Virus record (IMG/VR): IMGVR_UViG_3300047558_000092
Strand: one strand, 5' to 3'
Length of the DNA: 64,000 bases
Source: a virus
Lineage: Duplodnaviria > Heunggongvirae > Uroviricota > Caudoviricetes
Shown: one piece after another, positions 32,326-64,000 of the stretch
How the letters are laid out: each line of letters opens with the position of its first letter
Numbering within the stretch: position 1 is the first letter of the stretch
The notes under the pieces: model-generated
Seen by the model: only the letters and a program-made list of their open reading frames with translations
Told to the model about the DNA's origin: nothing
Database searches by the model: none
Position numbers and translations under genes: made by a program

Positions 32326-32335
32326 ATTTACTCCT

Positions 32336-37560: not shown

Positions 37561-38005
37561 TCAAAAAGAACTTGATAGTGTTTACATGCAGACAGCTCTA
37601 ACTCATGCAATGCTCTCAAAAGCTATTAGAGCGCAGGTAGGAGCTGTTTTAGTTACTAGTCATGGGGTAACCCTCACTGGTTACAATGGTACTGCTAAAG
37701 GGCGTGATAATTGCTGTGAAGTTCTGAAACCACAACCATTTCCACACGAACCTGCTTTGGAGACTAAATCAGAAGTTATCCATGCAGAATTGAACTGTAT
37801 CTTGAAAGCTGCCAGAGAAGGTGTGAGTTGTATTGATTCAACGGTATACGTAACGCTTGCACCTTGTGTACAGTGCGCTGCTATGATGGTTCAAGCTGGC
37901 GTAAGACGTTTAGTTTATAAGACACCTTACCGCGATACCTCTGGCTTAAACTTGCTAGAAGGTTCTGGTGTAAGAATCCAACAGTACAGTGAGACACAAC
38001 TATGA
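37553..38005 (+). CDS. dCMP deaminase
   Basis: 150 aa; HAELNCIL and PCVQCAAMM zinc motifs with typical dCMP deaminase spacing. Confidence 0.75.
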   Translation: MASQKELDSVYMQTALTHAMLSKAIRAQVGAVLVTSHGVTLTGYNGTAKGRDNCCEVLKPQPFPHEPALETKSEVIHAELNCILKAAREGVSCIDSTVYVTLAPCVQCAAMMVQAGVRRLVYKTPYRDTSGLNLLEGSGVRIQQYSETQL

Positions 38006-41364: not shown

Positions 41365-41859
41365 ATGAAATATATGGAAGGTGATTTAATTGAATTAGCT
41401 CGTCAAGGGCATTTCAACTACATTGTGCATGGCTGTAATTGCTTCTGCACTATGGGTAAGGGTATCGCTAGACAGATTAAGGCAGAGTTTCCTGCAGCTT
41501 ATGCAGCAGATTGCTTGACTTACTATGGCGAACGTAGTAAACTCGGTACGTACAGCATCATGTATGGCCCGATTACTATTGTCAATGCATACACTCAATA
41601 TGATTTTGCCAAAGGTTACGATGGTAAAGACGATTATTTTGAGTACGAAGCATTCCAGAAAATCTTAGACCGTTTGGTTAAAGAGCATGGTCACCGTGAC
41701 TTCGGTTTTCCGTACATTGGTATGGGACTAGCAGGAGGCGATAAGGACCGCATTCTAGGTATGCTACAAGGCTTTGCAGATGCTGTTAAAGCTAAAGGTG
41801 GGTCCGTAACATTAGTGAAGTACCCAATGAGTCGAATTTTACGAAAGGAATCAGTTTGA
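41365..41859 (+). CDS. macro domain protein (ADP-ribose / Appr-1''-p processing)
   Basis: 164 aa; NYIVHGCNCFCTMGKGIARQI and GIGLAGGD-like macro-domain glycine loops. Confidence 0.65.
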   Translation: MKYMEGDLIELARQGHFNYIVHGCNCFCTMGKGIARQIKAEFPAAYAADCLTYYGERSKLGTYSIMYGPITIVNAYTQYDFAKGYDGKDDYFEYEAFQKILDRLVKEHGHRDFGFPYIGMGLAGGDKDRILGMLQGFADAVKAKGGSVTLVKYPMSRILRKESV

Positions 41860-42044
41860 CAGATGTAAGATTTAACGAACCTATTTGCACTACTGATGGT
41901 ACGCCATATGTATCTGTAGGTCAAAATGAAATGCAAGTTTATATTAGACTTGAACGATATAAAGATTTAGCAGTTGTTTTAGATAAACGCTGCTTACCTC
42001 AACTAATCCCACAATTAAAGGAAATATTGGATGATTTCAGCTAA
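41856..42044 (+). CDS. hypothetical protein
   Basis: 62 aa ORF. Confidence 0.35.
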   Translation: MTDVRFNEPICTTDGTPYVSVGQNEMQVYIRLERYKDLAVVLDKRCLPQLIPQLKEILDDFS

Positions 42045-42933
42045 AATTATTGCAGACAGTTATAACGAAATCCACGGAACTCGCCTAACTACATTTGAAT
42101 TAGTTTATCCACGATTTATTCATGGCGAACTAATGACGCATCGCAAGTTTAGCCGTAATGCTGCCAGCTCTCGTGCTATCCCAATTGATAAGGTAATTGA
42201 ACTGGTTGAGACAACACCAGCTATGCCTGTACATTGGGGTGCTAACCAAGCAGGTATGCAAGCTAAGGCAGAAGTATCTGATAAAGAACGTGCAATTAAA
42301 TTGTGGTTATCCTCTCGTGATAGCGCAGTAAAGTATGCTAAGGCTATGAAAGATGCAGGGTTACATAAACAAATTGTAAACCGTATTCTTGAGCCATATC
42401 AGCTTATGAAGACAATCGTAACTGCTACCGATTATAATAATTGGTTCTGGTTACGTGACCATGAAGATGCACAACCTGAGATTGCAGAACTTGCAGCGGT
42501 AATGTGTGTAGAATATGCTGCACATATTCCAGAAGAGTTAACTGTCGGTGAGTGGCATGTACCTTATGTAAAAACATACCGTGATTCACATACTGGTGAG
42601 CGATTCTATCTAGATGAAAACGACAAGTACATCACTATGGAAGAGGCCCGTATGATTAGCGCCAGCTGTTGCGCTCAAGTTAGCTATCGTAAGAACGATG
42701 GTAGCTTAGAGAAGGCTTCTATGGTGTTTGACCGATTGATTAACTCAGTACCAGTGCATGCATCACCAGTTGAGCATATCGCTACACCGATTGACGATGT
42801 ACCGTTTGTTGAAGAATACCTTAAGATTGAAGGTGTAACTCACATCGACAAATACTATCAACCTCACAGTGGTAACTTATGTGGTTGGATTCAATTCCGT
42901 CAGCTAATCCCTAACAATGTAAAGGAAGGTTAA
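42031..42933 (+). CDS. thyX: flavin-dependent thymidylate synthase
   Basis: 300 aa; ThyX signature ELMTHRKFSRNAASSRAIP (RHRxxSxxxxSxR). Confidence 0.7.
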   Translation: MISAKIIADSYNEIHGTRLTTFELVYPRFIHGELMTHRKFSRNAASSRAIPIDKVIELVETTPAMPVHWGANQAGMQAKAEVSDKERAIKLWLSSRDSAVKYAKAMKDAGLHKQIVNRILEPYQLMKTIVTATDYNNWFWLRDHEDAQPEIAELAAVMCVEYAAHIPEELTVGEWHVPYVKTYRDSHTGERFYLDENDKYITMEEARMISASCCAQVSYRKNDGSLEKASMVFDRLINSVPVHASPVEHIATPIDDVPFVEEYLKIEGVTHIDKYYQPHSGNLCGWIQFRQLIPNNVKEG

Positions 42934-50185: not shown

Positions 50186-50427
50186 GTCATGAACTAGCAG
50201 AGACTGAATGGAAAGGTATGCCTGAATTCGTACAGGAAAAGCAGGAACCATTTGCTAAAATTAATGTACGATTTCGTAATCAAGCTGACCTAGACGAGTT
50301 TGCAGCATTGATTGGTCAAAAGCTTACGCCTAAGACTAAGAGTATCTGGCATCCATTCTTAGAGCGAGGTATCAACGCGAATAAAAGGTATGTAGATGAC
50401 ACGGAGGGACACGCAAGTGAATCCTAA
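50182..50427 (+). CDS. hypothetical protein
   Basis: 81 aa ORF. Confidence 0.35.
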   Translation: MSHELAETEWKGMPEFVQEKQEPFAKINVRFRNQADLDEFAALIGQKLTPKTKSIWHPFLERGINANKRYVDDTEGHASES

Positions 50428-51283
50428 ATATCCTATTTACATTGTATCTAAGGGTAGAGCGCATACACGACTAACTAGTAAGGCTCTAGAACGCACGAGA
50501 GTACCCTACAGCATCGTTGTTGAAGAGCAGGAATACCTAGAGTACTCCAAGGTGATTGACCCCTCTAAAATCCTTGTTTTACCACAGAGCTGGTTAGATG
50601 AGTATGATACTTGTGATAGTTTAGGCTCAACACTCAGTAAGGGACCCGGTGCGGCTCGTAACTTCTGCTGGTGGCATGCCAAACACCGAGGGTTCAAACG
50701 TCATTGGGTTATGGACGATAACCTAGACGCTTTCCATCGACTGAACCATAACATGAAAGTTGTGGTAGAAACTGGGGCTTGCTTTGCTGCAGCCGAGGAT
50801 TTTGTTGACCGTTATACCAATGTGCCATTAGCTGGTTTTAACTACTATTCGTTTGCAAAGGCAACAGATAGAGTAGCACCTTTTATTACAAACACACGAA
50901 TCTATTCATGTCTCTTAATTGAGAATTCTGCACCTTATCAGTGGCGTGGTAGATACAATGAAGATACGGACTTATCCCTACGTATGTTGAAAGATGGATG
51001 GTGTACAATTCAATTCAATGCATTCTTGCAGGGTAAGGTAACTACTCAACGTATGAGGGGTGGTAATACTGAAGAGTTCTATCGTCACGAAGGCACTAAG
51101 AACAAATCACAAATGCTGGTAGACTTACATCCTGATGTAACTAAGCTTGTATGGAAATTTAATCGGTGGCATCATCAAGTTGATTATCGTCCGTTTAAAA
51201 ATAATCTGTTGATTAGACGCGAAGGACTAGAAATTCCTGATACAATCAACAACTATGGAATGAAACTAATCGAAAGGTCTTAA
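50396..51283 (+). CDS. hypothetical protein, possible GT-A-fold glycosyltransferase
   Basis: 295 aa; N-terminal YPIYIVSKGR beta-strand/Rossmann start and a VMDDNL DxD-like motif; weak. Confidence 0.35.
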   Translation: MTRRDTQVNPKYPIYIVSKGRAHTRLTSKALERTRVPYSIVVEEQEYLEYSKVIDPSKILVLPQSWLDEYDTCDSLGSTLSKGPGAARNFCWWHAKHRGFKRHWVMDDNLDAFHRLNHNMKVVVETGACFAAAEDFVDRYTNVPLAGFNYYSFAKATDRVAPFITNTRIYSCLLIENSAPYQWRGRYNEDTDLSLRMLKDGWCTIQFNAFLQGKVTTQRMRGGNTEEFYRHEGTKNKSQMLVDLHPDVTKLVWKFNRWHHQVDYRPFKNNLLIRREGLEIPDTINNYGMKLIERS

Positions 51284-53705: not shown

Positions 53706-54336
53706 GGAGTATTTATGTATTTGATTAATTTGTTCTTCTGTTTCTTAGCTGTGTTTTTCATGGTAGAATGTAAAGATAATCGTGCATTGTTCTGGTTGAA
53801 TGCTTTATCTTTGGTATTGAACTTTGCAGCTTTTGCTATGGGAGTGCTTGTATAATGAAGAACTGTCAAAACTGTAAGTTTCATTCACAAGGTATCGGTG
53901 CAGTAACTGCTAATGGTACTAAGTGGATGTGGCAAGAGTGCAGTAAGAATTGGGGTAAGCCTACACCTATTGGAGTTCTCAAAAACTTATGTGGGTTATG
54001 GCAAACAAAAGGAGATAAGTAATATGGGTTCAGGTTCTAAGTTTCGGTCCGATAGTGACTATACCTTCATTGCATTCGGCTTGGCGATTATACCTAAGGG
54101 TGAGCATGCGTTGAGTATTCATATTAATCTAGTCTTCTGGCATTTCTATTTTGGATTTGGTAAGGGCTATGACGAATAACTTAGTAAGGTAAACTGACTA
54201 TAAATACCTTGATTATCCGATAGTTAAATGCTATAATAGTTAAGCAATAGTTAAAGAAGTCATGAACTTTAATGATAAGAGCAGCTTTCCGTGGCTGCTT
54301 TTTGCTTTTCTATTACGGGTATTTATCGGAGAATAT

Positions 54337-54816
54337 ATGAAGAAATGTAGTTGCTGTAGAATTGAAAAACCTTTTACTGAGTTTCATAAGAATAAATCAG
54401 CTAAATCTGGTTATTCTAATTACTGTATCGAGTGCAGGAAGCTTACTAGAAATAACCCTAGAGGTACAAGACAAGCACTTGATGTGTTTGACCAAACTAG
54501 AGGGAATCATGTAGTATACCAATTCTATGATGTAAATGATGAATGTATTTATGTAGGTCAAACTGTAAATTTTATCAGGCGGTTGAACGATCATAAAGTT
54601 AGTAAGGTATTTTATAATCAAATTACAAAAATAGTGTGTAATATTGTAGAATCTTATCCAGACATGATATTCTTAGAGGCGCAATTAATTATAGAGATTA
54701 AACCAAAATATAATAAACAAGTTATTGGAGCTATTGCATCAAAATCAAAAATCTATGTAGCTAAAATAGTTGAGTACGATATTGAAGGTGTCGAACTAAA
54801 ACGTAAAACAATTTAA
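54337..54816 (+). CDS. GIY-YIG homing endonuclease
   Basis: start set at MKKCSCC; N-terminal Cys cluster, then VYQFYDVNDECIYVGQTVNFIRRLNDHK GIY-YIG core. Confidence 0.6.
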   Translation: MKKCSCCRIEKPFTEFHKNKSAKSGYSNYCIECRKLTRNNPRGTRQALDVFDQTRGNHVVYQFYDVNDECIYVGQTVNFIRRLNDHKVSKVFYNQITKIVCNIVESYPDMIFLEAQLIIEIKPKYNKQVIGAIASKSKIYVAKIVEYDIEGVELKRKTI

Positions 54817-54953
54817 AAATCCACGCACCCCTTTCGGAATTAAAAAGCCGTGAGGGGTTTTGTTTTGCCTAAAAATTCTATTCTACCAAAAAGCCGCGAT
54901 TAAACCAAAAACCCACGTGCCATTTGGTGAAATAAAATCAGTCTAATGCTCAA

Positions 54954-55031
54954 ATTTTGCGCCGAAATTTTGCATCGTGAAACGCGATTTTGCATTGTGA
55001 AATTAACCGTTTTACATCGTGAAAAATAGCC
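54954..55031. repeat. AT-rich iteron set: about 3.5 copies of a ~22 bp unit ATTTTGCATCGTGAAA
   Basis: attttgcgccga / aattttgcatcgtgaaacgcg / attttgcattgtgaaattaacc / gttttacatcgtgaaaaatagcc. Confidence 0.6.
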
Positions 55032-55066
55032 GTAACTTGTTGATTTTAAACGATTTTATGGCCACA

Positions 55067-55416
55067 GGTGACCAGCGCCTGAACCAGCAGCGAAGCGGTA
55101 AAGGTAACCAGCAGAGGAAACCAGCGAAGGTGACCAGCGCCTGAACCAGCAGCGAAGCGGTAAAGGTAACCAGCAGAGGAAACCAGCGAAGGTGACCAGC
55201 GCCTGAACCAGTACAGGTAACCAGCAGAGGAAATCAGCGAAGGTGACCAGCAGAGGAAACCAGCGAAGGTGACCAGCGCCTGAACCAGTACAGGTAACCA
55301 GCAGAGGAAATCAGCGAAGGTGACCAGCAGAGGAAACCAGCGAAGGTGACCAGCGAAGGTGACCAGCGCCTGAACCAGTACAGGTAACCAGCGAAGGTGA
55401 CCAGCAGAGGAAACCA
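55067..55416. repeat. complex tandem repeat array built from GGTGACCAGC / GGTAACCAGC modules (two perfect 62 bp units, then 51/26/13 bp variants)
   Basis: 55067..55128 and 55129..55190 are identical; GGTGACCAGC occurs 9 times; the minus-strand ORF 55046..55426 is a translation artefact of the repeats. Confidence 0.7.
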
Positions 55417-55890
55417 AAGAACACAAACAAACTAAAATCTAGTACTTTTATTTGCAGAATACCGATAGATTTTATTTATTGCACCGATAGAAAATATTTA
55501 TGATGAAAGTGGTTTTATCTGGTTTTATTTGCCATAATAGAGGCACTCAAACAAATCAACCACAGGAAAAATAAACCATGTTTATGCTCAAAGTATCAGC
55601 CGCAATGATTATCGGGGCAGGTGTAATGCTCACAGGGGCAGCGCAGGGGAGCGCCTTAATTATGGCCGCACCATTTATCATTTTAATGACAATCATTTGC
55701 GTGAAAGGTTAAGCATGAAAACCAAGATTTTAAACGCCGTTATTTTCGCCGCATCATTCGCCGTGATTCTCGCATGTATGCTAGAATACTTTGATTGTCT
55801 CACACGTTAAATTGTCAGTTATAGCCCCTGATTCAAGCGGGAGCTATAGCGGGTAATTTCACCCGATATTGTCTCACAGGAATAAACACC

Positions 55891-56223
55891 ATGACAAACG
55901 AAACCAGCACCACAGCAGCAGCCGCCACCGTTACAGCACCAGCACCAGCGAAGCAGCCGCAGCGATACACAAAAACGGTTTTTATCACAGGCACAAAACA
56001 GGCCGAACAATTCGCCGCGCTCCGTGTCGGTCAGTGGGTCCACGGGTTAAGCCTTAACGGACAATCAGGGCTTTACAGGGGCCAGTTTTTGGGCTTTGAT
56101 AACGTGGGTTTACCCGTGGTAAATTTCCGCATGGATAACACCCCGAACCGCCTACAATGGCGCGAACAGTTCGCAAGTAATAAGCCCCTGCGAACCTTCG
56201 CCAAGATTAAGAGCACAATCTAA
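55891..56223 (+). CDS. hypothetical protein in the high-GC island
   Basis: 110 aa, Ala/Thr-rich N-terminus; GC-rich codon usage unlike the rest of the window. Confidence 0.4.
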   Translation: MTNETSTTAAAATVTAPAPAKQPQRYTKTVFITGTKQAEQFAALRVGQWVHGLSLNGQSGLYRGQFLGFDNVGLPVVNFRMDNTPNRLQWREQFASNKPLRTFAKIKSTI

Positions 56224-56237
56224 ACTAGGGGCATAAC

Positions 56238-56426
56238 ATGAAGCGAATCATTCTCACAATTCATGCAGACGGAACAGCCACCGCGAAGGGCTTATTTATT
56301 GACGCGCGGGAAAGTGTAAACAGCTTAAACCGTACATATAAAACCGAAGCCCAAGCACTGCAAGATTTTGCAGACATGCGCGACCGTGACTGTGAATTCT
56401 CTTTTACAGTTAGCCGCAAGGTTTAA
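56238..56426 (+). CDS. hypothetical protein (high-GC island)
   Basis: 62 aa ORF. Confidence 0.35.
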   Translation: MKRIILTIHADGTATAKGLFIDARESVNSLNRTYKTEAQALQDFADMRDRDCEFSFTVSRKV

Positions 56427-56505
56427 CAGCCTTACAACGCCCCGAAGCTTGACCACCTAGGGGTTAGCCTACCAACTCGACCAATAAACAACCAGAGCCG
56501 ACAAA

Positions 56506-57180
56506 ATGACAACATATAAAACCTTTGAAATTGTAGACCTCAGCAAGAAACAAGCGCAGAGCGTATGCGGTAGCCTTACCACAACCAGTAAGATGCCTTG
56601 TAAGTCGTACAGTTTACCGACTGAAGCGTGCAAAACGGGTTACAAAATGGCTCAAATTAGCGGCAGTATTTGCGCTTCATGTTATGCGGATAAAGGGAAT
56701 TATGCGCGATATGCTAACGGCATAAAACCCGCGCAATTCGCCCGACTTGATGCAATTATGCACCCTTACTGGATTAGCGGTATTATCGCCCTCATTGGCT
56801 CAGACGCTTATTTTAGGTGGCATGATAGCGGAGATTTACAGAGCTTAGAGCATCTAGAGCAAATCGCAGAGGTTGCCAAGTTGACCCCTAATTGTCAGCA
56901 TTGGCTACCGACTAGGGAATACGGCATTGTAAAAGCGTATATTGAGAAACACGGCAAACCGCCCTTTAATCTGACAATTCGACTATCGGCAATGTATGCA
57001 GATAAACCCGTTATTATCCCTAAATCTTTGCAGAATATCCAAGGGGTAACAGCTTCAAACGTACACACCAAGGGCAAGACCGTAAGCGGTACACAGTGCA
57101 AAAGTACAGAGCAACAAGGAGAGTGTAGAGAATGCCGCCTATGCTGGACGGGTGAAATTGTCAGTTATCAGATGCACTAA
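56506..57180 (+). CDS. Cys-rich hypothetical protein (high-GC island)
   Basis: 224 aa with several Cys clusters (CGS...C, CASCYADKGNY, CRECRLC). Confidence 0.4.
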   Translation: MTTYKTFEIVDLSKKQAQSVCGSLTTTSKMPCKSYSLPTEACKTGYKMAQISGSICASCYADKGNYARYANGIKPAQFARLDAIMHPYWISGIIALIGSDAYFRWHDSGDLQSLEHLEQIAEVAKLTPNCQHWLPTREYGIVKAYIEKHGKPPFNLTIRLSAMYADKPVIIPKSLQNIQGVTASNVHTKGKTVSGTQCKSTEQQGECRECRLCWTGEIVSYQMH

Positions 57181-57339
57181 AGGGCTCAATTATGCGTTAT
57201 ATACTGATTCTGGTTTCATTCTGGTTTATATTGTGGTGCATTGTGCTAGGTGTATGCTTATTGGCATATAGCCGCGCCTATACCGCGCAACAGTTACGCC
57301 TATTTAACCCGCCTTAATAGCCGCGCCTTATACGCGCAT

Positions 57340-57372
57340 AAAACCCGCCCCTAATAAGGCGGGTATTTTTTC
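57340..57372 (+). terminator. rho-independent terminator
   Basis: cccgcc-cctaataa-ggcggg hairpin followed by tatttttt. Confidence 0.55.
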
Positions 57373-57920
57373 GCCCCTATAATTTGCAATAATCGGACAT
57401 AATAGCGGGTATTTAATAGGGGGCTAGATAGCTTGGGGGTTTAATGATTCGCATGGAGTGCTATACAAAGCCCCGCGCATAAGTACCAAACGATAACCCA
57501 ACGATATAACGCGCATATAATCGGACGCATAATAGGGCGTAAAAAAATTGCTCTTCTCCGATTAGGTTATTGTTTATAGTTACGTCAGAACTACCCTTAT
57601 TGAACGGATATTTTAGAATCGTATAATCAGTGGTAAATCCACCATAGCGGCCTATCAAGCACCCATGACTACCTGCAATAATATTCCATTTACCTGTCAT
57701 TCATGCAATAAAATTTCACCGTATAGAATCAAAGTATTAACAGCTCAAATAACAACCCTAAAGCTGCTTAAACGTACATAAAAGGTCATTAAACACCCAT
57801 TGTAACGCACCAGAACGCTCTGTAGCAGCTTATAATCCAACGGACGACTCAATGTACAGGAAACACATATAACTCGTTGTAGGCCGTTTAAATCGGCCCG
57901 ATATATTTAGACGTAAAAAT

Positions 57921-57953
57921 AGCCCTAGGGACGTTAATCCGAAGGGCTAAAAT
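57921..57953 (-). terminator. terminator at the end of the minus-strand ClpP/PhoH unit (hairpin usable in both directions)
   Basis: agccct-agggacgttaatccga-agggct hairpin flanked by A/T runs. Confidence 0.45.
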
Positions 57954-58730
57954 TTATTTTTTATTTTTAGTAGATTTTGGAGCTTTGACTTTAGCTGCAT
58001 CATCTAGTTGTTCGAGAACTTTCTCAACCTCTTCAGGTTCCATAGCTTCGATTTGTTTAACCAGAGCTTTTTCTACCTTTTTAAGTTCAGCTTTCTCTTT
58101 CTTGACTCTTTGCATAACTAGTTGCTCTCTGCGTTGTAGTCTTTCTACAATCTCTTCAGAGTTGAACCACATTTCCTTACCCATGATAACATCGGCTAGT
58201 TCTTTGTCAGTTAGGAAATCTTTATACACATCATGCATTAGACCCTTAACCTGCTTATCTACGAATGAAGCATGGGAAATTACATCCGATTGCTTACCGT
58301 AGGCTCCGAACGTAGCAGCATGAATCATCATACTGGCATAAGGACTTACGCTTACCGAAGGACTAGCTAACGCAATGAGCGAACCTGCACTAGCAGCGAT
58401 ACCATCGATATGACAATGTACATTAGCACTGGTATTTTGAATTGCATTGATAATTGCGATAGCGCCATCTAAATGACCTCCGTAGGTATTAATACTTAAC
58501 CATACAATATCATCATCACCTAAACTGTCGATAGTGTGAATGAGATTACGGTAATATTTAGCTTCTTTTACACCTTCGTCAATGAACGCTTTGATGCACC
58601 GATTAACTTGAGTACTTTGGAAATAAGGCAAATGCTGATTAGCAAGCATAGGGTTAGTAGAATCGTCATCTTCATCGTCCAATTTATTTAAGGGTGTAAA
58701 ATTTTTAAACTTTTTTAGTTTGTCTAACAT
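57954..58730 (-). CDS. ClpP-like serine protease (S14 family) with Lys-rich coiled-coil C-terminus
   Basis: 258 aa; LSINTYGGHLDGAIAIINAIQ...HIDGIAASAGSLIA (Ser and His of the ClpP fold); C-terminal ELKKVEKALVKQIEAMEPEEVEK. Confidence 0.6.
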   Translation of the reverse strand: MLDKLKKFKNFTPLNKLDDEDDDSTNPMLANQHLPYFQSTQVNRCIKAFIDEGVKEAKYYRNLIHTIDSLGDDDIVWLSINTYGGHLDGAIAIINAIQNTSANVHCHIDGIAASAGSLIALASPSVSVSPYASMMIHAATFGAYGKQSDVISHASFVDKQVKGLMHDVYKDFLTDKELADVIMGKEMWFNSEEIVERLQRREQLVMQRVKKEKAELKKVEKALVKQIEAMEPEEVEKVLEQLDDAAKVKAPKSTKNKK

Positions 58731-59490
58731 TAGCTTTCTCCTTTGTTGTGCTTTGAGTTACGGCAGTACCATCAATCTCAGCAATGAGTTCATCCTCGAA
58801 AGCAATTACGAATTCTTTGGTTAATCCGCTGCGTACTACGTCTGCTCTACCGAATGTAGTAAAGCTGCAGTCATCGATATTATATTTGACGCAAATCTTT
58901 TCCAAGTATGTCAGTCCATCCATACCCTTCTTTACATCGGTTTGAGGTCCAGTGTTATCACCGCAGAACACAATCTGAGAATTAGTGCCTACACGGGTGG
59001 TAAGGGCTTGAATCTCTGGAACGTATAAGTTCTGGCTTTCATCTACGATAATAATGCTGTCATTCCAGCTACGACCACGGATGGTTTCTAAGCTACAGAT
59101 TTCAATAGTCTTATTTTTGAGATGAATTTCGGTGGTAGCCTTACCGAGATAGTCTTCAAAGTAATCAATCATCTGTTGGTAGAAGGGTAATAACTTCTCT
59201 TCCGCTGTACCGGGGAGGAATCCAATGCTCCGACCAGCCAACGGTTGATAAGCACGAATTAATACTACCTTCTTAATATCAGCATAATGCAATTTCTTCG
59301 CTGCATGCCAAACCGCCAATAACGTCTTACCTGTACCAGCACTACCTCTAGCTACAACTAAGGTATTATACTTTAGAGCTTCTAGTAACTCTGTCTGCTT
59401 TGCATTCATTGGTAACAGCACAGGAAACTGCTGGCGCTGGAACTTTTCTTTTTGAATACGTTGTGCTGCAACTTTTTGATTTCTTTTCAT
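58705..59490 (-). CDS. PhoH-like ATPase
   Basis: 261 aa; Walker A VVARGSAGTGKT; Walker B IIIVDESQN. Confidence 0.8.
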   Translation of the reverse strand: MKRNQKVAAQRIQKEKFQRQQFPVLLPMNAKQTELLEALKYNTLVVARGSAGTGKTLLAVWHAAKKLHYADIKKVVLIRAYQPLAGRSIGFLPGTAEEKLLPFYQQMIDYFEDYLGKATTEIHLKNKTIEICSLETIRGRSWNDSIIIVDESQNLYVPEIQALTTRVGTNSQIVFCGDNTGPQTDVKKGMDGLTYLEKICVKYNIDDCSFTTFGRADVVRSGLTKEFVIAFEDELIAEIDGTAVTQSTTKEKANVRQTKKV

Positions 59491-59537
59491 AGACCTCCTA
59501 AAATAATTAAGCCCTCCGTAGAGGGCCGTATGAACAA

Positions 59538-59921
59538 TTACTTATTCTTTGGTTTAGGACCGCGCTTTGCAGGTTCCTTAACTTCTGGAGTTTCGTGAGT
59601 CTCAACTTCGGTAGTCTCTTCTGTAACTACTTCAGTTGTCTCTTCAGTGTTTTGTTCCGTATTCTGTACAACTTCTTCGGTTTGTTCAGTTTCAGTAACA
59701 CTTTCACCAACCTGCTCAGTTTCAGTTTCAGTAGTCTCTTCCGCTACTTCTTCTACTGTCTCACTAGCCTTAACAAGACCGCAAGTAAGCATAGTGCCAT
59801 AAGCCGTAGGAAAGTTTTCATTGGTATCAAAATCGAAGACATAACCTTCTTTGAAAGCTGCTTCAATGTCTTGGCAGAAGTCGTAGAGGCCGTAAGATTC
59901 GATTCGTTTAACATTTGTCAT
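59538..59921 (-). CDS. highly acidic Thr/Glu-rich protein (DNA-mimic candidate)
   Basis: 127 aa; ~50 aa folded N-terminus, then a long ETTETETEQ... low-complexity acidic tract and a basic KRGPKPKNK end. Confidence 0.45.
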   Translation of the reverse strand: MTNVKRIESYGLYDFCQDIEAAFKEGYVFDFDTNENFPTAYGTMLTCGLVKASETVEEVAEETTETETEQVGESVTETEQTEEVVQNTEQNTEETTEVVTEETTEVETHETPEVKEPAKRGPKPKNK

Positions 59922-60037
59922 GTGTACTCCTTTTAGGGTTAATAAAAGTTAATTATAACATAACCTCAGTTCAGAGTCAAGGCTTAGGAAATATTTTGAG
60001 CAAAGTATTGACAAATCGTAAAACGTGTGATAACCTT

Positions 60038-60466
60038 ATGGAGTCTTATAAAGGAGTTCGTGTGCAATCAACTAACATTGTAAAATTAGAAAAGAAAACT
60101 AGTCCAAAGAACACATGGATTAGGTCTTCGCACGAGCTACTGAAACGTAAGGACTTAACATCTAATGCTAAATTAGTATATTCACATATGTTGGATAAAT
60201 ATGTATTCTTTAGTAGTCAAAATAAAGAGTACTATGAAAATCTAGTGGATATTGGTGAAGCCTTAGGTGGAATGGCTAAACAAACTGTTAGCGACTGCAT
60301 CAAGAAATTAAAAGAAGCTAACCTAATTATTGTACGTACAAAAAATGTCTACTCAAGCACTAAATCAATTGTGTCGAATAACTACATTGTGAAAGATGTG
60401 TACGGTATTTATGAACCACAGAAGCCTAAGCGAAAGCACTATGACGAAGATGATACGCCATTCTGA
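60038..60466 (+). CDS. winged-helix DNA-binding protein with SSB-like acidic C-terminal tail (candidate origin-binding/initiator protein)
   Basis: start set at MESYKGVRV (track ORF starts at 59915); HTH GGMAKQTVSDCIKKLKEANLIIV; C-terminus KPKRKHYDEDDTPF parallels the SSB tail EDEDTPF; iterons immediately downstream. Confidence 0.45.
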   Translation: MESYKGVRVQSTNIVKLEKKTSPKNTWIRSSHELLKRKDLTSNAKLVYSHMLDKYVFFSSQNKEYYENLVDIGEALGGMAKQTVSDCIKKLKEANLIIVRTKNVYSSTKSIVSNNYIVKDVYGIYEPQKPKRKHYDEDDTPF

Positions 60467-60473
60467 TAGTCCG

Positions 60474-60540
60474 AAAATCTTACCTATGATAGTCCGAAAA
60501 TCTTACCTATGATAGTCCGAAAATTAGCCCCTAATAAGAC
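60474..60540. repeat. three tandem 22 bp iterons (GATAGTCCGAAAATCTTACCTAT)
   Basis: tgatagtccgaaaatcttacctatgatagtccgaaaatcttacctatgatagtccgaaaattagcccc, directly after the stop of 60038..60466. Confidence 0.7.
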
Positions 60541-60756
60541 TGACCAACAATACTGATATAACTATACTGATATTACTATGTATAGTATAACGTACATTAG
60601 GCTTTCAGCCTGTTTGCTGGTGAGCTTTTAGGTTTGTTGTATAAAAACAACAGTACAACCCTACATACCTAACTTACACCTATCTAGCACATAGAACTAA
60701 TAGATTGTGCTAAACGATTAAGTTATGCTTACTAAATTAATAACTATAAGGATATT

Positions 60757-61236
60757 ATGTTAAAAGAACTATTGCTATATTGTGCATTAGAGGGTGAGTT
60801 CTACATACTCAAGGCTGACAAACCTTACCGTAGGCTTTTCCCTGATGCTGACGGATACCTAATATTCTACAAAAAAGGTAAGAAGTACAAGTTGAAAGCT
60901 AATAGGGTAGCAATAGAGTTAGGTAATGACTTGATTGTGCCAAAAGATAAAGTAGTGCTGCATCGTAATCTGGACTACAATGATTACAGACTGCAAAACT
61001 TACGTTTAGTCACTAGAAAAACTTTTAATACTATCAAAGAGGCTCAACGTAATTTAGGTGGTGCTTTACGTATCGTACCACATCATCAAGATATGTTCAG
61101 TTATACCCTATGCTGGAGAGAAGATGGTAAGGATAGAGTGTTAGTCGTACAAGATATCGTAGTGGTACGTAGGTTATATAATAAACTACAATTAAAGTAC
61201 GCTAAAACACTCAGTAAGTACTGCGTGTTTGATTGA
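60757..61236 (+). CDS. hypothetical protein
   Basis: 159 aa ORF. Confidence 0.4.
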   Translation: MLKELLLYCALEGEFYILKADKPYRRLFPDADGYLIFYKKGKKYKLKANRVAIELGNDLIVPKDKVVLHRNLDYNDYRLQNLRLVTRKTFNTIKEAQRNLGGALRIVPHHQDMFSYTLCWREDGKDRVLVVQDIVVVRRLYNKLQLKYAKTLSKYCVFD

Positions 61237-61736: not shown

Positions 61737-61842
61737 TTAATAGCGGAGTGGAGAAGTGGTCATCTCGTTACCCTCATAAGGTAAAGAACGCTTGTTCGAA
61801 TCAAGCCTCACGCTTCCATTACAAAGTCATCGAAGGATAGAC

Positions 61843-62247
61843 ATGAAAGATAAGAAAACAGAGCAGCTAGGTATGAATCCTAGCACAGCAAGTCACAGGT
61901 TAGTAAAAGATATCCTTTGGGCTTTAATTTTACAAACTGGTCAAGATAAATGTTGTAAATGTGGTCATCAAATGACTAGAGAAACATTTTCAATTGAACA
62001 TAAGATACCTTGGTTAGACAGTGACAATCCTAAAGAATTATATTTTGATTTAAATAATATAAGTTTTAGTCATTTATCATGTAACGTAGCTGATTCAAGG
62101 AAACCAGCTTCAAAATGTGGTACAATAAACAAATATGACAAACATGGTTGCAGGTGCGAAGCTTGTAAAAATGTTAAAAGAGAAGTTCAAGCTAGATACT
62201 ACACACCAGAACGTAGAAAATCTATATACGCTAGAACAGGTCATTAG
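61843..62247 (+). CDS. HNH endonuclease
   Basis: start set at MKDKKTEQ; CCKCGHQM...FSIEHKIPW...H-LSCN HNH motif and C-terminal CGT...CRCEAC zinc cluster; sits just before the tRNA cluster. Confidence 0.55.
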   Translation: MKDKKTEQLGMNPSTASHRLVKDILWALILQTGQDKCCKCGHQMTRETFSIEHKIPWLDSDNPKELYFDLNNISFSHLSCNVADSRKPASKCGTINKYDKHGCRCEACKNVKREVQARYYTPERRKSIYARTGH

Positions 62248-62404: not shown

Positions 62405-62478
62405 GCTGAATTAGTTCAACGGTAGAACACTGGTTTTGTAGTCCAGTGATGAGTGTTCGATTCATTCATTCAGCACCA
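62405..62478 (+). tRNA. tRNA-Thr (anticodon TGT), tentative
   Basis: GCTGAAT-TA-GTTC-AACGGTA-GAAC-A-CTGGT-TTTGTAG-TCCAG-TGAT-GAGTG-TTCGATT-CATTC-ATTCAGC-A-CCA; U-U at 31-39. Confidence 0.55.
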
Positions 62479-62479
62479 T

Positions 62480-62555
62480 GCGGAGATAGCTCAGTTGGTA
62501 GAGCGTTGTCTTGATAAGGCAAATGTCACTGGTTCAAACCCAGTTCTCCGTACCA
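62480..62555 (+). tRNA. tRNA-Ile (anticodon GAT)
   Basis: GCGGAGA-TA-GCTC-AGTTGGTA-GAGC-G-TTGTC-TTGATAA-GGCAA-ATGTC-ACTGG-TTCAAAC-CCAGT-TCTCCGT-A-CCA. Confidence 0.75.
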
Positions 62556-62608
62556 GTTTCGAGAAGATTACAAGTATTTGTTCATAGCCTATTGTATCCG
62601 TTAGGATT

Positions 62609-62622
62609 TGTGCTATAATCTT
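62609..62622 (+). promoter_or_regulatory. extended -10 promoter element (TGTGCTATAAT) inside the tRNA cluster
   Basis: tttgtgctataatc about 13 nt upstream of tRNA-Glu. Confidence 0.45.
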
Positions 62623-62634
62623 CTCACTTATTAA

Positions 62635-62709
62635 GCAGCATTCGTCTATCGGTTAGGACACACGGTTTTCATCCGTGCAAGGGGAGTTCGATTCTCCCAT
62701 GCTGTACCA
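62635..62709 (+). tRNA. tRNA-Glu (anticodon TTC)
   Basis: GCAGCAT-TC-GTCT-ATCGGTTA-GGAC-A-CACGG-TTTTCAT-CCGTG-CAAG-GGGAG-TTCGATT-CTCCC-ATGCTGT-A-CCA. Confidence 0.7.
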
Positions 62710-62714
62710 AATTT

Positions 62715-62801
62715 GGATTGTTGGCTGAACGGTTAAGGCAGCGGATTGTAAATCCGTCATCCCAAGGGATATTAGTGGTTCGAATCCATTGCAATCCACC
62801 A
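62715..62801 (+). tRNA. tRNA-Tyr (anticodon GTA), long variable arm
   Basis: GGATTGT...GCGGA-TTGTAAA-TCCGT-var(CATCCCAAGGGATATT)-AGTGG-TTCGAAT-CCATT-GCAATCC-A-CCA. Confidence 0.7.
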
Positions 62802-62805
62802 AATT

Positions 62806-62906
62806 TTGTAGTCTTAGTCTGGAACTAGGGTAAAGGGTGTTGCGGAAGCTTAAATGCCGTTAAATATCGAAGCGCAACTTTAATGAATGTGTGCAGCCTA
62901 CTACAA
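62806..62906 (+). ncRNA. ~100 nt structured RNA candidate (not a canonical tRNA)
   Basis: outer helix TTTGTAGT (62805..62812) / ACTACAAA (62900..62907) and inner helix GTTGCG (62839..62844) / CGCAAC (62873..62878); no T-loop consensus. Confidence 0.3.
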
Positions 62907-62915
62907 ATCAAATAT

Positions 62916-62992
62916 TGACCTATAGCTCAGTTGGTAGAAGCGTCTAACTGTTAATTAGAATGTCCGTGGTTCGAGCCCACGTAGGTCAGCCA
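62916..62992 (+). tRNA. tRNA-Asn (anticodon GTT)
   Basis: TGACCTA-TA-GCTC-AGTTGGTAG-AAGC-G-TCTAA-CTGTTAA-TTAGA-ATGTC-CGTGG-TTCGAGC-CCACG-TAGGTCA-G-CCA. Confidence 0.7.
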
Positions 62993-62998
62993 AATTAT

Positions 62999-63072
62999 TG
63001 GGGATTAGTTAAATGGTATAACCACGGATTTTGATTCCGTTGTCGTAAGTTCGATTCTTGCATCCTCTGCCA
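62999..63072 (+). tRNA. tRNA-Gln (anticodon TTG)
   Basis: TGGGGAT-TA-GTTA-AATGGTA-TAAC-C-ACGGA-TTTTGAT-TCCGT-TGTC-GTAAG-TTCGATT-CTTGC-ATCCTCT-G-CCA; 1-72 mismatch. Confidence 0.6.
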
Positions 63073-63076
63073 ATAT

Positions 63077-63152
63077 GTTCCGATAGCTCAACTGGCAGAG
63101 CAGTGGATTCCAAATCCGAAGGTTGGAGGTTCGATTCCTTCTCGGTTCGCCA
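63077..63152 (+). tRNA. tRNA-Trp (anticodon CCA) with two U-U mismatches in the acceptor stem
   Basis: GTTCCGA-TA-GCTC-AACTGGCA-GAGC-A-GTGGA-TTCCAAA-TCCGA-AGGTT-GGAGG-TTCGATT-CCTTC-TCGGTTC-G-CCA. Confidence 0.55.
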
Positions 63153-63155
63153 AAT

Positions 63156-63247
63156 AGAAGATTGGTCGAGTGGTTTATGGCATCTGTTTGCTAAACAGAC
63201 GGTGGCTTTACAGCCGCCCATAGGTTCGAATCCTATATCTTCTGCCA
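63156..63247 (+). tRNA. tRNA-Ser (anticodon GCT)
   Basis: AGAAGAT...TCTGT-TTGCTAA-ACAGA-long variable arm (CGGTGGCTTTACAGCCGCCC)-ATAGG-TTCGAAT-CCTAT-ATCTTCT-G-CCA. Confidence 0.7.
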
Positions 63248-63258
63248 ATAAAAATTTA

Positions 63259-63346
63259 GGATGGGTGGCAGAGTGGTCGATTGCGACAGGCTTGAACCCT
63301 GTTGGTCCGAAAGGGTCCGTGAGTTCGAATCTCACCTCATCCTCCA
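63259..63346 (+). tRNA. tRNA-Ser (anticodon TGA)
   Basis: GGATGGG...ACAGG-CTTGAAC-CCTGT-long variable arm (TGGTCCGAAAGGGTCC)-GTGAG-TTCGAAT-CTCAC-CTCATCC-T-CCA. Confidence 0.7.
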
Positions 63347-63355
63347 AATACAATT

Positions 63356-63442
63356 CCGTTTTTAGGCTAGTCAGGTCAAGTCACTCGGTTTGGGGCCGAG
63401 AGCAGCAATGCATCGTAGGTTCGAATCCTACAGAACGGACCA
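63356..63442 (+). tRNA. tRNA with anticodon TGG (Pro) and atypically long, structured variable region
   Basis: CCGTTTT-TA-GGCT-AGTCAGGTCA-AGTC-A-CTCGG-TTTGGGG-CCGAG-var(AGCAGCAATGCATC, GCA/TGC stem with GCAA loop)-GTAGG-TTCGAAT-CCTAC-AGAACGG-A-CCA; 87 nt. Confidence 0.5.
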
Positions 63443-63470: not shown

Positions 63471-64000
63471 CCCGCTTCTGGTGCTATAGCTATGTCTCAG
63501 GTAAATACTGAGCTAGGTTTAGGTTCCACAAATACTATCAGTTTAAATGATTCAGCTGTACGTGCTTTAGCTGGTGTTGCTAGTGGTGCTATTAGTTTAA
63601 GTAACTTATACGGTAAGGCTAACCAATTTGCATTCTCATTTAATGGTGGGACTAATATAGACCTTAGATCACTAGCTATATCTTTTGGTTGGAATGGTAC
63701 GTCTAAGGTTGTAGCTACTAATACAGGTGCAATTTACTCAAATTCTACAGGTACTCCAGCTTTAACAGTCAGTGGCTCGTTTCCGGGAGGCGTACAACTA
63801 ATCAACAACAGTACGATTCTTGGTCGTGGTGGTGATGGAGGCTTGGGTGGCGGCGCTATACCTACTAACCAAATCCCCCCAACAGGTGGCGGCGCTGGTG
63901 GAACAGGTTTGTACGCAGTAGTTGCTATGTCTGTAACTAACAACGGCACTATTAGCGGCGGCGGTGGCGGTGGCGGCGGCGGTGGCGGTGCCTATCAGAG
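63471..64000 (+). CDS. Gly-rich structural (fibre/spike-like) protein, partial (runs off the window)
   Basis: ORF from ATG at 63471 (AAAGGTG RBS) open to the window end: MTLPASGAIAMSQVNTELGLGS...GGGGGGGGGGGAYQ; not in the ORF track because it has no stop in the window. Confidence 0.45.

What the first reader, a model, noticed from the sequence alone, without database searches (positions are those of the whole stretch)
55440..57955. High-GC (~55-60%) island of unknown genes in an otherwise ~40% GC phage, followed by a 770 bp repeat-containing noncoding stretch
Codon usage and base composition change abruptly. Two tiny hydrophobic ORFs lie here (55578..55712, 44 aa; 55715..55810, 31 aa). They are followed by 55891..56223, 56238..56426 and a Cys-rich 224 aa protein (56506..57180). 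Next come a strong terminator at 57340..57372 and a noncoding region holding direct repeats (ATAGCCGCGCCTATACCGCGC near 57269 and 57316; ATAATCGGAC-CATAATAGCGGGTA at 57388 and 57517). The island is flanked by the repeat arrays on one side and a GIY-YIG endonuclease upstream, so it looks like recently acquired cargo, possibly host-derived or a moron or anti-defence insert. Function is unknown.
Basis: seen in the sequence. Interest (0 to 1): 0.65.

Follow-up and report, generated by a model that had tools for sequence, protein, structure and literature searches.

The report
Swappable GP88 enzyme cassette in phage
This moderately GC-rich stretch is not fresh foreign cargo: it is a fixed gene slot shared by a whole family of freshwater phages, and here one uncharacterised cysteine-rich enzyme (GP88) has recently replaced its distant cousin (DUF7227).

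Summary
The compositional anomaly is real but overstated. Region 55440-57955 is 44.2% GC against 38.7±1.5% for same-size windows (z 3.6). Island genes have GC3 0.44-0.58 against 0.32±0.05. Only about 55,900-56,200 reaches 55%.

The unit runs from an AT-rich leader to a terminator at 57343-57372. It encodes three small hydrophobic peptides (44, 31 and a newly recognised 41 aa), two clade-specific small proteins and a Pfam GP88 protein.

The same gene order sits at the same place in all 15 relatives examined, including Limnohabitans phage DC31. So the island as a whole is a core slot, not recent cargo. Its GC is 52-57% in close relatives and 26-33% in the DC31 subclade.

What is recent is a gene-sized swap. 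Four close relatives carry DUF7227 where the window carries GP88, and one GP88 lineage still keeps a 21-aa DUF7227 remnant. GP88 and DUF7227 are remote homologues. They also alternate at one position in T7-like roseophages and lie in the same right-end region of Mycobacterium phages. Both models best match radical-SAM enzymes, but weakly, and function is untested. No close relative was found in 185,579 species genomes.

The "noncoding" stretch holds a conserved bipartite DNA motif of unknown role.

The parts
54827..54858 (+). Terminator-like hairpin after the GIY-YIG gene; it would close the upstream transcription unit (context only)
   Evidence: Hairpin of -15.4 kcal/mol followed by UUUUGUUUUG, but z is only -1.6 against shuffles. 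Weak evidence.
54967..55024 (+). Three copies of a 16-nt motif, ATTTTGCATCGTGAAA
   Evidence: the repeat finder family D3. Copies occur only here in the window at 0-1 mismatch. The same motif recurs at the syntenic place in L015.
55066..55416 (.). About 25 tandem copies of a 13-bp unit (RGGTRACCAGCRR). This is the true 56% GC peak and lies outside the finding.
   Evidence: TRF period 13, with higher-order periods 51/62/77; the repeat finder D1/D2. Relatives carry different short-repeat arrays here, plus DnaA boxes. The window has no DnaA boxes in this region.
55421..55577 (+). AT-rich leader (29% GC) with two 19-nt direct repeats (ACCGATAGAnnnTATTTAT at 55461 and 55483). Presumed promoter/operator region of the island operon.
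   Evidence: GC; repeats from the repeat finder D5. The exact 9-mer occurs twice here and only once elsewhere in the window. The promoter role is inferred; the sigma-70 scan did not flag it.
55578..55712 (+). 44-aa hydrophobic ORF (h44)
   Evidence: ORF list. No sequence homologue was detected in relatives. Reading L015 and L017 shows short hydrophobic ORFs in the equivalent position, so only the position is conserved.
55715..55810 (+). 31-aa hydrophobic ORF (h31) with a conserved C-terminus, MLEYFDCLTR
   Evidence: tblastn 58-64% to L014 and L015. The ORFs there are 43 and 75 aa.
55891..56223 (+). 110-aa clade-specific protein (o110); the most GC-rich gene of the island (52.9%)
   Evidence: Homologous sequence at the same slot in 15 relatives, 34-91% identity. 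It is 58.6% identical to the DC31 protein. Family of 216 proteins with no Pfam domain. Only weak PHROG hits of unknown function.
56238..56426 (+). 62-aa protein (o62)
   Evidence: 41-58% identical homologues directly after o110 in L014, L015, L017, L022 and L155. No family match.
56506..57180 (+). 224-aa Cys-rich GP88-family protein, a recent replacement of DUF7227
57192..57317 (+).
   Evidence: 58-67% aa identity in L014, L022 and L023. A similar small hydrophobic ORF follows GP88 in DC31, seen by reading the sequence.
57343..57372 (+). Intrinsic terminator that ends the island operon
   Evidence: 7-bp stem with 6 GC pairs and a T-run; -14 kcal/mol, z -2.3. Equivalent hairpins occur in L014, L024, L022 and DC31.
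57388..57412 (.). Motif AATAATCGGAC-N5-TAGCGGGTA, first copy
   Evidence: Invariant columns across window, L014, L024, L022 and L016. Similar TTATCGG / GCGGGTTA motifs occur in DC31.
57517..57542 (.). Second copy of the same motif (ATAATCGGACGCATAATAGGGCGTA)
   Evidence: Read in the sequence. TAATCGGAC is found at 57390 and 57518.
57607..57677 (.). Conserved bipartite element: GATATTTTAGAATCGTA, 41 nt, ATGACTACCTGCA (preceded by ATCAAGCACCC)
   Evidence: Both halves occur at identical spacing in 11 loci from both subclades, where the surrounding DNA is otherwise unalignable. No consensus RNA structure was found. The minus-strand ORF across it is broken in L016 and L035 and has no start in L029.
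57882..57898 (.). Small conserved hairpin
   Evidence: RNAalifold pairs with compensatory changes between the two subclades; -9.6 kcal/mol, z -2.2.
57920..57949 (.). Bidirectional terminator hairpin, directly after the stop of the minus-strand ClpP-like gene
   Evidence: -15.7/-16.0 kcal/mol, z -3.5/-4.1 on the two strands. Compensatory pair changes occur in 8 sequences.

Best explanation
SHOWN.

- The segment is a compact gene block, bounded by an AT-rich leader with repeats and by a terminator at 57343-57372. It encodes h44, h31, o110, o62, GP88 and tm41.
- It occupies a fixed slot in a family of roughly 75-85 kb freshwater phages, which includes the Limnohabitans phage DC31 group.
- The slot always lies between a repeat-rich intergenic region and the convergent ClpP-like/PhoH genes. 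In every relative whose held DNA covers it, it ends in a GP88/DUF7227-superfamily protein.
- Its base composition differs from the backbone in every lineage examined, but in different directions: 52-57% GC in the window's subclade and 26-33% in the DC31 subclade.
- In the window's lineage a gene-sized recombination replaced DUF7227 with a GP88 gene. That GP88 subfamily is otherwise found in 41-50% GC phage contigs. The window also lacks the 121-aa ORF found beside DUF7227 in relatives. Both changes lower the window island to about 45-47% GC.

INFERRED.

- The block is transcribed as one operon from the AT-rich leader. No promoter was detected and there are no expression data.
- DUF7227 is the older occupant of this slot in the window's subclade, based on its wider distribution and on the remnant in L022/L023.
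- GP88 and DUF7227 are interchangeable versions of one Cys-rich metalloenzyme with a radical-SAM-like partial barrel. Conserved features are three N-terminal Cys after strand 1, an R..GD motif after strand 2, and a C-terminal C-x8-C-x2-C-x2-C.
- Because the two families often sit within about 2 kb of a genome record's end in other phages, I guess the enzyme acts early on nucleic acid, nucleotides or SAM, in DNA modification or anti-restriction. The early timing and the substrate are guesses.
- The upstream free-standing GIY-YIG endonuclease may drive the local gene conversion that keeps the slot turning over.
For: Composition.

Synteny. tblastn maps of L014-L017, L022-L024, L028 and L151-L162 show the same order in all 15 relatives.

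GC of the island in relatives.

The swap. blastn homology to L014 stops at 56228 and resumes at 57188, exactly at the stop codon. L014, L015, L016 and L017 all carry a 286-299 aa DUF7227 protein. L022 and L023 keep a 21-aa DUF7227 N-terminal remnant (76% identity) between o121 and GP88. The GP88 ORF is 88-100% identical to L022, while the flanks drop to 54-76%. L024 has GP88 beside ClpP/PhoH.

Source pool. Homologues at 60-71% identity lie on phage contigs whose flanking DNA is 41-50% GC, and the homologous genes themselves are 43-55% GC.

Superfamily link. 20 of 76 and 45 of 150 window-type GP88 proteins also hit the DUF7227 Pfam model; 16 of 150 hit DUF5131. Foldseek matches a DUF7227 protein at E 2e-4 and a Gp37/Gp68-like protein at E 0.047. 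DUF5131 is listed among radical-SAM subgroups (PMC9477430).

Conserved Cys/GD columns.

Alternate occupancy elsewhere. CRP-113 carries GP88 and CRP-118 carries DUF7227 at the same position, after maturase B at the record end. In Mycobacterium phages both families lie about 2 kb from the right end: GP88 in 238 records and DUF7227 in 65.

GIY-YIG at the same site in L154 and L155.
Against: - There is no CX3CX2C motif and no Pfam Radical_SAM hit.
- hhalign of GP88 against DUF7227 gave only 5.8% probability, on the C-terminal Cys motif.
- The canonical DC31-type GP88 lacks the C-terminal cysteines, so that cluster is not universal in the superfamily.
- No expression data exist, so 'one operon' and 'early' are both inferred. 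In this phage the operon lies at the end of a long plus-strand block, not at a known genome end.
- That DUF7227 is the older occupant rests on its distribution and on one 21-aa remnant.
- o110 is about as diverged between subclades (58-66% aa) as flanking genes are (44-67%). Vertical descent with a local compositional shift is therefore not excluded as the cause of the GC contrast.
Confidence: 0.6

Rival explanations
1. The whole island is recently acquired cargo (a moron or anti-defence insert, possibly host-derived).
For: GC and GC3 differ clearly from the backbone. The GP88 gene is a recent import. A homing endonuclease and repeat arrays flank the locus.
Against: o110, o62, h31 and tm41 are syntenic in the relatives, and the island there is even more GC-rich. 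The slot exists in the distant isolate DC31. No relative of the GP88 gene was found in 185,579 species genomes. The change is a replacement, not an insertion.
Confidence: 0.1
2. The compositional anomaly is not due to horizontal transfer. Instead a local force acts on vertically inherited genes, such as selection on DNA properties near an origin or regulatory region, or a transcription- or repair-associated mutation bias.
For: o110 divergence between subclades (58-66% aa) is similar to that of the flanking genes o53274 and ClpP (44-67%). The island adjoins a repeat-rich intergenic region that carries DnaA boxes in relatives. The anomaly covers the intergenic DNA as well as the genes in the DC31 subclade.
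Against: The deviation has opposite signs in sister subclades. Intermediates (L153, L155) mix 27-34% GC genes with a 45-46% GC DUF7227 gene. Recombination breakpoints at gene edges are seen directly.
Confidence: 0.15
3. GP88 and DUF7227 are not radical-SAM-like enzymes. They would be zinc-binding proteins on a generic alpha/beta or TIM-like scaffold, for example a metal-dependent hydrolase or nuclease of TatD/amidohydrolase type, or a non-catalytic DNA-binding factor.
Confidence: 0.3
4. The conserved part of the 'noncoding' stretch (about 57600-57950) encodes a small RNA or a small minus-strand protein (the 79-aa ORF 57461-57700).
For: A near-consensus promoter, TTGAAC-16-TATAAT, lies at 57600-57627 on the plus strand, with terminator-like hairpins downstream. 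tblastn of the 79-aa ORF gives 66% identity in L014. Sequence is conserved across subclades.
Against: RNAalifold finds no conserved structure apart from the two 3' hairpins, which also serve as the ClpP terminator. There is no Rfam hit; the best is E 0.13 elsewhere. The -35/-10 pair is not conserved outside the window. The minus-strand frame is interrupted in L016 and L035 and lacks a start in L029, and substitutions are not concentrated at third codon positions when the sequences are read.
Confidence: 0.15

Closest known systems
Pfam GP88 (PF17338, 'Gene product 88'; I believe from memory that it is named after Mycobacterium phage L5 gene 88)
   Same: The 224-aa protein scores 80.9 bits against a cut-off of 24.4 over nearly the whole model. 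The syntenic DC31 protein scores 152.8 bits. Like many family members it lies in a block of small unannotated phage genes. In other phages it usually lies within about 2 kb of a genome record's end.
   Different: The window subfamily adds a C-terminal C-x8-C-x2-C-x2-C motif that is absent from DC31-type GP88 and resembles DUF7227. The family has no known function, so membership explains nothing mechanistically.
Pfam DUF7227 (PF23872)
   Same: It occupies exactly this slot in L014-L017. It shares the [ED]A[CS]K[ST]G, SIC..C, R.G..GD and C-terminal Cys motifs. Cross-hits appear in 20 of 76 and 45 of 150 GP88 members. Foldseek gives E 2e-4.
   Different: The window protein itself does not reach the DUF7227 model. 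DUF7227 is about 70 aa longer, with an N-terminal helix and a beta-rich insertion. Pairwise BLAST and hhalign are not significant.
Radical-SAM superfamily, especially minimal members (QueE, PFL-AE) and the SPL / DUF5131 (phage Gp37/Gp68) group
   Same: These are the best structural matches of both models. Sub-threshold DUF5131 hits occur in 16 of 150 members. Three conserved Cys follow strand 1, and a G-D motif follows strand 2 where radical-SAM enzymes have GGE (motif positions recalled from memory).
First early genes of T7-like phages (T7 gp0.3 Ocr, T3 SAM hydrolase) - a positional analogy recalled from memory
   Same: In T7-like roseophages the GP88 or DUF7227 gene lies at the extreme end of the record, next to the terminase-to-left-end junction. 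That is the place where T7 and T3 carry anti-restriction genes. Those genes too are replaced by non-orthologous alternatives between relatives.
   Different: No sequence or fold similarity to Ocr or the T3 SAMase was tested or seen. In the window phage the gene is not at a known genome end.
Mosaic hypervariable regions of phage genomes, and gene conversion driven by free-standing homing endonucleases (T4 Seg/I-Tev type; from memory)
   Same: Gene-edge recombination breakpoints, alternative cassettes at one locus, and a GIY-YIG endonuclease beside the slot that is present in only some relatives.
   Different: No cleavage site or homing event has been demonstrated. The slot is retained in every relative examined rather than being present or absent.

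Membership tests
Pfam GP88 (PF17338) | Full-length match to the family HMM above the gathering score | tested here: met
   80.9 bits against 24.4, residues 25-215 on model positions 21-229. All 76 and all 150 homologues scanned also match.
Pfam DUF7227 (PF23872) | Match to the family HMM above the gathering score (27 bits) | tested here: not met
   The window protein has no DUF7227 hit at E <= 0.1. Only some of its homologues cross-hit, with best E-values 2.9e-5 and 9.1e-7. It is a related family, not a member.
Radical-SAM superfamily | Partial (beta/alpha)6 TIM-barrel core | tested here: inconclusive
Radical-SAM superfamily | CX3CX2C (or an accepted variant) three-Cys motif in the loop after strand 1 | tested here: not met
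   No CX3CX2C. The conserved cysteines are C42, C56 and C59 (C-x13-C-x2-C) after strand 33-36. The equivalent of C42 is Ser in DUF7227. A long-spacer variant is conceivable but unproven.
Radical-SAM superfamily | SAM-binding GGE-type motif after strand 2 | tested here: inconclusive
   Invariant R104, G109 and D110 (FRWHDSGD) follow strand 102-106. DUF7227 has RLGTYGDP at the aligned position. This is suggestive only.
Radical-SAM superfamily | [4Fe-4S] cluster and reductive cleavage of SAM | not testable with these tools
   Needs anaerobic biochemistry.
Recently acquired accessory island / moron | Present in this genome but absent from close relatives at the same site | tested here: not met
   Where the held DNA covers them, the slot genes are present in every one of the 15 relatives examined. 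Only the last gene differs, and by replacement.
Recently acquired accessory island / moron | Own promoter and terminator, with composition unlike the backbone | tested here: inconclusive
   The terminator and the composition shift are met. The promoter is only inferred from an AT-rich repeat-bearing leader; no sigma-70 match was flagged.
Small regulatory RNA in the intergenic stretch | Conserved secondary structure supported by covariation, or an Rfam match | tested here: not met
   RNAalifold on 8 sequences predicts only the two 3' terminator hairpins. Rfam has no hit better than E 0.13.

The most novel reading that the evidence does not exclude
GP88, DUF7227 and DUF5131 (Gp37/Gp68) would together form a large, phage-borne branch of radical-SAM-like Fe-S enzymes. 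The window subfamily alone has about 3,400 clusters at 50% identity. Unrelated phage groups, namely this freshwater family, T7-like roseophages and Mycobacterium phages, would treat them as interchangeable early genes. That would point to an undescribed early-infection chemistry, for example radical modification or repair of injected DNA, or consumption of SAM to blunt restriction. On this reading, the opposite-sign GC islands mark a cassette that circulates between phages of very different composition.
Probability: 0.25. Interest if true: 0.7.

Novelty: new member of a known kind. Interest (0 to 1): 0.4.

Why it matters
As a finding about this window it is fairly ordinary: a mosaic, compositionally odd cassette at a recombination-prone slot, carrying a member of a known family of unknown function.

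The comparison does yield three useful results:

1. GP88 and DUF7227, two large uncharacterised phage families with no papers found in the searchable library, are remote homologues. They substitute for each other at the same slot in this phage family and in T7-like roseophages, and lie in the same right-end region of Mycobacterium phages.
2. Both give radical-SAM enzymes as their best, though weak, structural matches. This is a concrete biochemical hypothesis to test.
3. Limnohabitans phage DC31 is a cultivated system in which the slot could be deleted or swapped.

If the enzyme inference holds, it would assign a chemistry to thousands of phage ORFs.

Tried and rejected
- **Nearby phage DNA.** Megablast of 54800-58000 against 50,697 phage records found no match. 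Only RNR and polymerase segments of the window match known phages.
- **Sequence search of solved structures.** GP88, its profile and the DUF7227 profile found nothing significant in the PDB.
- **NCBIfam.** Nothing for any island protein.
- **Literature.** Searches for PF17338, DUF7227, 'Gene product 88' and gp88 found no functional information. The gp88 mentions refer to unrelated genes.
- **Direct homology tests.** hhalign of GP88 against DUF7227 gave only 5.8% probability and BLASTP was not significant. The link was instead established through Pfam cross-hits and Foldseek.
- **AFDB.** The afdb50 fold library was unavailable.
- **Small RNA idea.** Rejected for lack of conserved structure.
- **Minus-strand 79-aa ORF (57461-57700).** Rejected as a gene because the frame is broken in relatives.
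- **DnaA boxes.** Found in relatives but not in the window's intergenic region.
- **Domain fusions.** N-terminal extensions of longer GP88 homologues carry no recognisable domain.
- **'SOS response-associated peptidase YedK'.** This source name on one o110 homologue has no Pfam support and was disregarded.
- **First motif scan.** The first DNA pattern for the conserved motif was too strict and found one locus. The second pattern returned mostly chance AT-rich hits and had to be filtered by requiring the second half-site.


Full report
**Observation**

The window averages 39.0% GC. The finding's region (55440-57955) is 44.2% GC. Its coding part (55578-57180) is 46.9%, and the 110-aa ORF is the maximum at 52.9%. 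Non-overlapping windows of equal length average 38.7% (sd 1.5, maximum 42.4%), so the region stands 3.6 sd above background.

The '55-60%' figure holds only for 200-nt windows around 55,900-56,200. The other 56% peak, at 55,100-55,400, is a 13-bp tandem array that lies outside the finding.

Third-codon-position GC is 0.44-0.58 in the six island ORFs against 0.32±0.05 in 21 other ORFs, so the codon-usage shift is real.

The ORFs, the terminator (57343-57364 plus a T-run) and the 57268/57317 direct repeat are as described. The 57388/57517 pair is only partly recovered by the repeat finder and differs by an indel.

The stretch is not fully noncoding. 57192-57317 is a 41-aa hydrophobic ORF conserved in relatives.

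**Anatomy**

- A terminator-like hairpin follows the GIY-YIG gene at 54827-54858, but it is weak (z -1.6).
- A repeat-rich intergenic region comes next. It has three copies of ATTTTGCATCGTGAAA and then about 25 copies of a 13-bp unit.
- A 29% GC leader with two 19-nt repeats follows.
- Six plus-strand ORFs follow: h44, h31, o110, o62, the 224-aa protein and tm41.
- They end at a good intrinsic terminator.
- Downstream, about 580 bp of non-coding DNA separates this block from the convergent ClpP-like and PhoH genes, whose bidirectional terminator is at 57920-57949.

I read the six ORFs as one operon, but no promoter was detected and no expression data exist.

**Comparative evidence**

I used the ClpP-like protein, the 224-aa protein and o110 as probes. 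They recovered IMG/VR and other metagenomic contigs and the isolate Limnohabitans phage DC31.

In all 15 relatives examined the order is the same, as far as the held DNA reaches: an upstream block (the o53274 homologue), a repeat-rich intergenic region, o110, one to three small ORFs, a GP88- or DUF7227-family protein, then convergent ClpP-like, PhoH and o127. The island as a unit is therefore a core slot of a family with roughly 75-85 kb genomes.

The slot's composition is anomalous in every lineage examined, but not in the same direction:

| Group | ClpP identity to window | Island GC | Backbone GC (approx.) |
|---|---|---|---|
| Window's subclade | 83-98% | 52-57% | 36-41% (39-45% in L017/L162) |
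| DC31 subclade | 62-67% | 26-33% | 36-40% |
| Intermediates L153, L155 | 64% | mixed: 27-45% genes plus a 45-46% DUF7227 gene | 34-40% |

Sources. o110 itself ranges from GC3 0.22 (DC31) to 0.67 (L017) at 34-66% amino-acid identity.

**The recent event**

Against the closest relative, L014, nucleotide homology is about 85% over 57188-60600 and 78% over 55806-56228. It stops at 56228 and resumes at 57188, right after the stop codon of the 224-aa gene.

Between those points L014, L015, L016 and L017 carry a 286-299 aa DUF7227 protein. L014, L015 and L017 also carry a diverged o62 and a 121-122 aa ORF, of which L016's contig end preserves only the last 32 residues. The window instead carries o62 and GP88.

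Contigs L022 and L023 carry a GP88 that is 96% identical to the window's. They still have the 121-aa ORF and a 21-aa remnant of the DUF7227 N-terminus just upstream of GP88. This, together with its wider distribution, suggests DUF7227 is the older occupant in this subclade.

The GP88 ORF is 88-100% identical in nucleotides to L022. Identity falls to 54-76% at its stop codon and is low before its start, so the unit of exchange was one gene. L024 shows an 85% identical GP88 beside the same ClpP/PhoH genes.

Outside this phage family the nearest GP88 homologues (60-71%) lie on phage contigs whose flanking DNA is 41-50% GC, and the homologous genes themselves are 43-55% GC. This fits the gene's 45% GC.

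No relative was found in one genome from each of 185,579 bacterial and archaeal species, so close host-derived relatives are not supported. That scan used only two peptide patterns.

**What the 224-aa protein is**

It is a clear member of Pfam GP88. The DC31 slot protein is also GP88. GP88 and DUF7227 are related:

- 20 of 76 close and 45 of 150 diverse homologues of the window protein also hit the DUF7227 model.
- Foldseek matches the model to a DUF7227 protein at E 2e-4.
- A joint alignment shows shared [ED]A[CS]K[ST]G, SIC..C, R.G..GD and C-terminal C..(8-11)..C..C..C motifs.

They also alternate in other phages:

- T7-like roseophages of one host strain carry GP88 (CRP-113) or DUF7227 (CRP-118) at the same position at the record end.
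- In roughly 50-kb Mycobacterium phages the two families sit in the same region, about 2 kb from the right end. GP88 is in 238 records and DUF7227 in 65.

On this basis I infer that the two are functionally equivalent.

**Fold**

Sixteen of 150 homologues give sub-threshold hits to DUF5131 (Gp37/Gp68), a group counted within the radical-SAM superfamily (PMC9477430).

Nearly invariant residues include three Cys after strand 1 (C42, C56, C59), R104/G109/D110 after strand 2, and four C-terminal Cys.

Against this reading:

- There is no CX3CX2C motif.
- There is no Radical_SAM Pfam hit.
- Unrelated barrels score almost as well.
- DC31-type GP88 lacks the C-terminal cysteines.

I therefore rate 'radical-SAM-like Fe-S enzyme' as the best but unproven reading. 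A Zn-binding hydrolase or binding protein is the main rival. No paper in the searchable library mentions either family.

**The noncoding stretch**

After tm41 and its terminator, several sequence blocks are conserved in relatives whose neighbouring genes differ:

- The motif AATAATCGGAC-N5-TAGCGGGTA, in two copies at 57388 and 57517.
- A bipartite element, GATATTTTAGAATCGTA-N41-ATGACTACCTGCA, at 57607-57677. It is found at identical spacing in 11 loci of both subclades, including DC31.

RNAalifold finds no shared structure apart from two 3' hairpins that show compensatory changes. Rfam finds nothing. The near-consensus promoter at 57600-57627 is specific to the window. The minus-strand 79-aa ORF across the element is broken in L016 and L035.

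The most economical reading is a cis-acting DNA site, regulatory or related to packaging or replication. Its function is unknown.

**Mechanism and rivals**

- **Shown:** a conserved slot with lineage-specific aberrant composition, and a gene-sized GP88-for-DUF7227 replacement in the window's lineage.
- **Inferred:** the block is one operon; the two proteins are equivalent Cys-rich metalloenzymes with a radical-SAM-like core; and the adjacent free-standing GIY-YIG endonuclease promotes local gene conversion. That endonuclease is present at the same site in L154 and L155 and absent in L015 and L017.
- **Guess:** the enzyme acts early on DNA, nucleotides or SAM.

Rivals are listed separately: whole-island recent cargo, local compositional selection without transfer, a non-radical-SAM metalloprotein, and an sRNA or small protein in the spacer.

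**Verdict**

This is a real but overstated compositional island. Its interpretation as recent cargo is wrong for the island and right for one gene. It is a new member of a known kind: a mosaic phage cassette carrying a GP88-family protein. It is of moderate interest, mainly for the GP88/DUF7227 equivalence and the testable radical-SAM hypothesis.

Noticed in passing
window 55066-55416: About 25 tandem copies of a 13-bp unit (RGGTRACCAGCRR, with higher-order periods 51/62/77). It is preceded by three copies of ATTTTGCATCGTGAAA (54967-55024) and followed by a 29% GC stretch. Relatives have different short-repeat arrays at this place, followed by DnaA boxes. The layout resembles an origin (iterons plus an AT-rich region), but the window has no DnaA boxes here.
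   Followed up: partly
L015 ~14235-14310; L028 (DC31) ~5960-6090: Clusters of 3-5 perfect DnaA boxes (TTATCCACA) in the intergenic region just upstream of the island in relatives. This suggests a host-DnaA-dependent origin or DnaA titration site. The window lineage lacks it.
   Followed up: partly
window 59915-60524: A 183-aa protein resembling replication initiators (Pfam DUF6945; PHROG replication initiation protein). It is followed at once by 2.7 perfect copies of a 23-bp iteron (60464-60524) and a 14-bp repeat (60546-60579). This is probably an origin. L014 has different iterons next to its diverged initiator.
   Followed up: partly
window 50396-51283 (with 42031-42933, 37553-38005, 15349-15912): A TET-associated glycosyltransferase (Pfam TAGT, E 2e-50), together with a ThyX-like protein, a dCMP deaminase and a protein with the N-terminal domain of dATP/dGTP diphosphohydrolase. 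The phage may hypermodify its DNA. No TET/JBP dioxygenase or C5-methyltransferase was found among the ORFs I scanned.
   Followed up: partly
window 54262-54816; also 36708-37304, 39911-40492, 60757-61236, 61792-62247: One free-standing GIY-YIG and four HNH-type endonuclease genes. The GIY-YIG gene is present at the same site in L154 and L155 but is replaced by a 78-83 aa ORF in L015 and L017, as expected for a mobile homing endonuclease.
   Followed up: partly
L028 (DC31) 6490-8642 and L154, L156-L161: In the DC31 subclade the syntenic island is AT-rich (26-33% GC against 36-40% in the backbone), the opposite sign to the window's subclade. o110 orthologues differ in GC3 from 0.22 to 0.67.
   Followed up: yes
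window 57607-57677: A bipartite motif, GATATTTTARAATCGTA-N41-ATGACTAMCTGCA, conserved at fixed spacing in 11 loci across both subclades. It has no RNA structure and no intact ORF. It is probably a protein-binding DNA site of unknown role.
   Followed up: yes
window 62405-63442, 22029-22104, 24022-24098: Twelve tRNA genes: a cluster of ten downstream of the initiator-like gene and two within the minus-strand replication block.
   Followed up: no
window 41365-41859, 40458-41363, 31270-32370: A Macro-domain protein and two RNA-ligase-like proteins. One resembles the T4 RNA ligase / tail-fibre attachment type and the other has PHA02142 OB plus RNA_ligase domains. This hints at an RNA-repair or ADP-ribose-related counter-defence module.
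   Followed up: no
window 9741-10042 and 63955-63990: Three copies of a 99-bp repeat just downstream of the 1712-aa ORF, within 9495-10256 (probably a repeat in a fibre-like protein). There is also a short GCG/GCGGTG repeat at the window's end.
   Followed up: no
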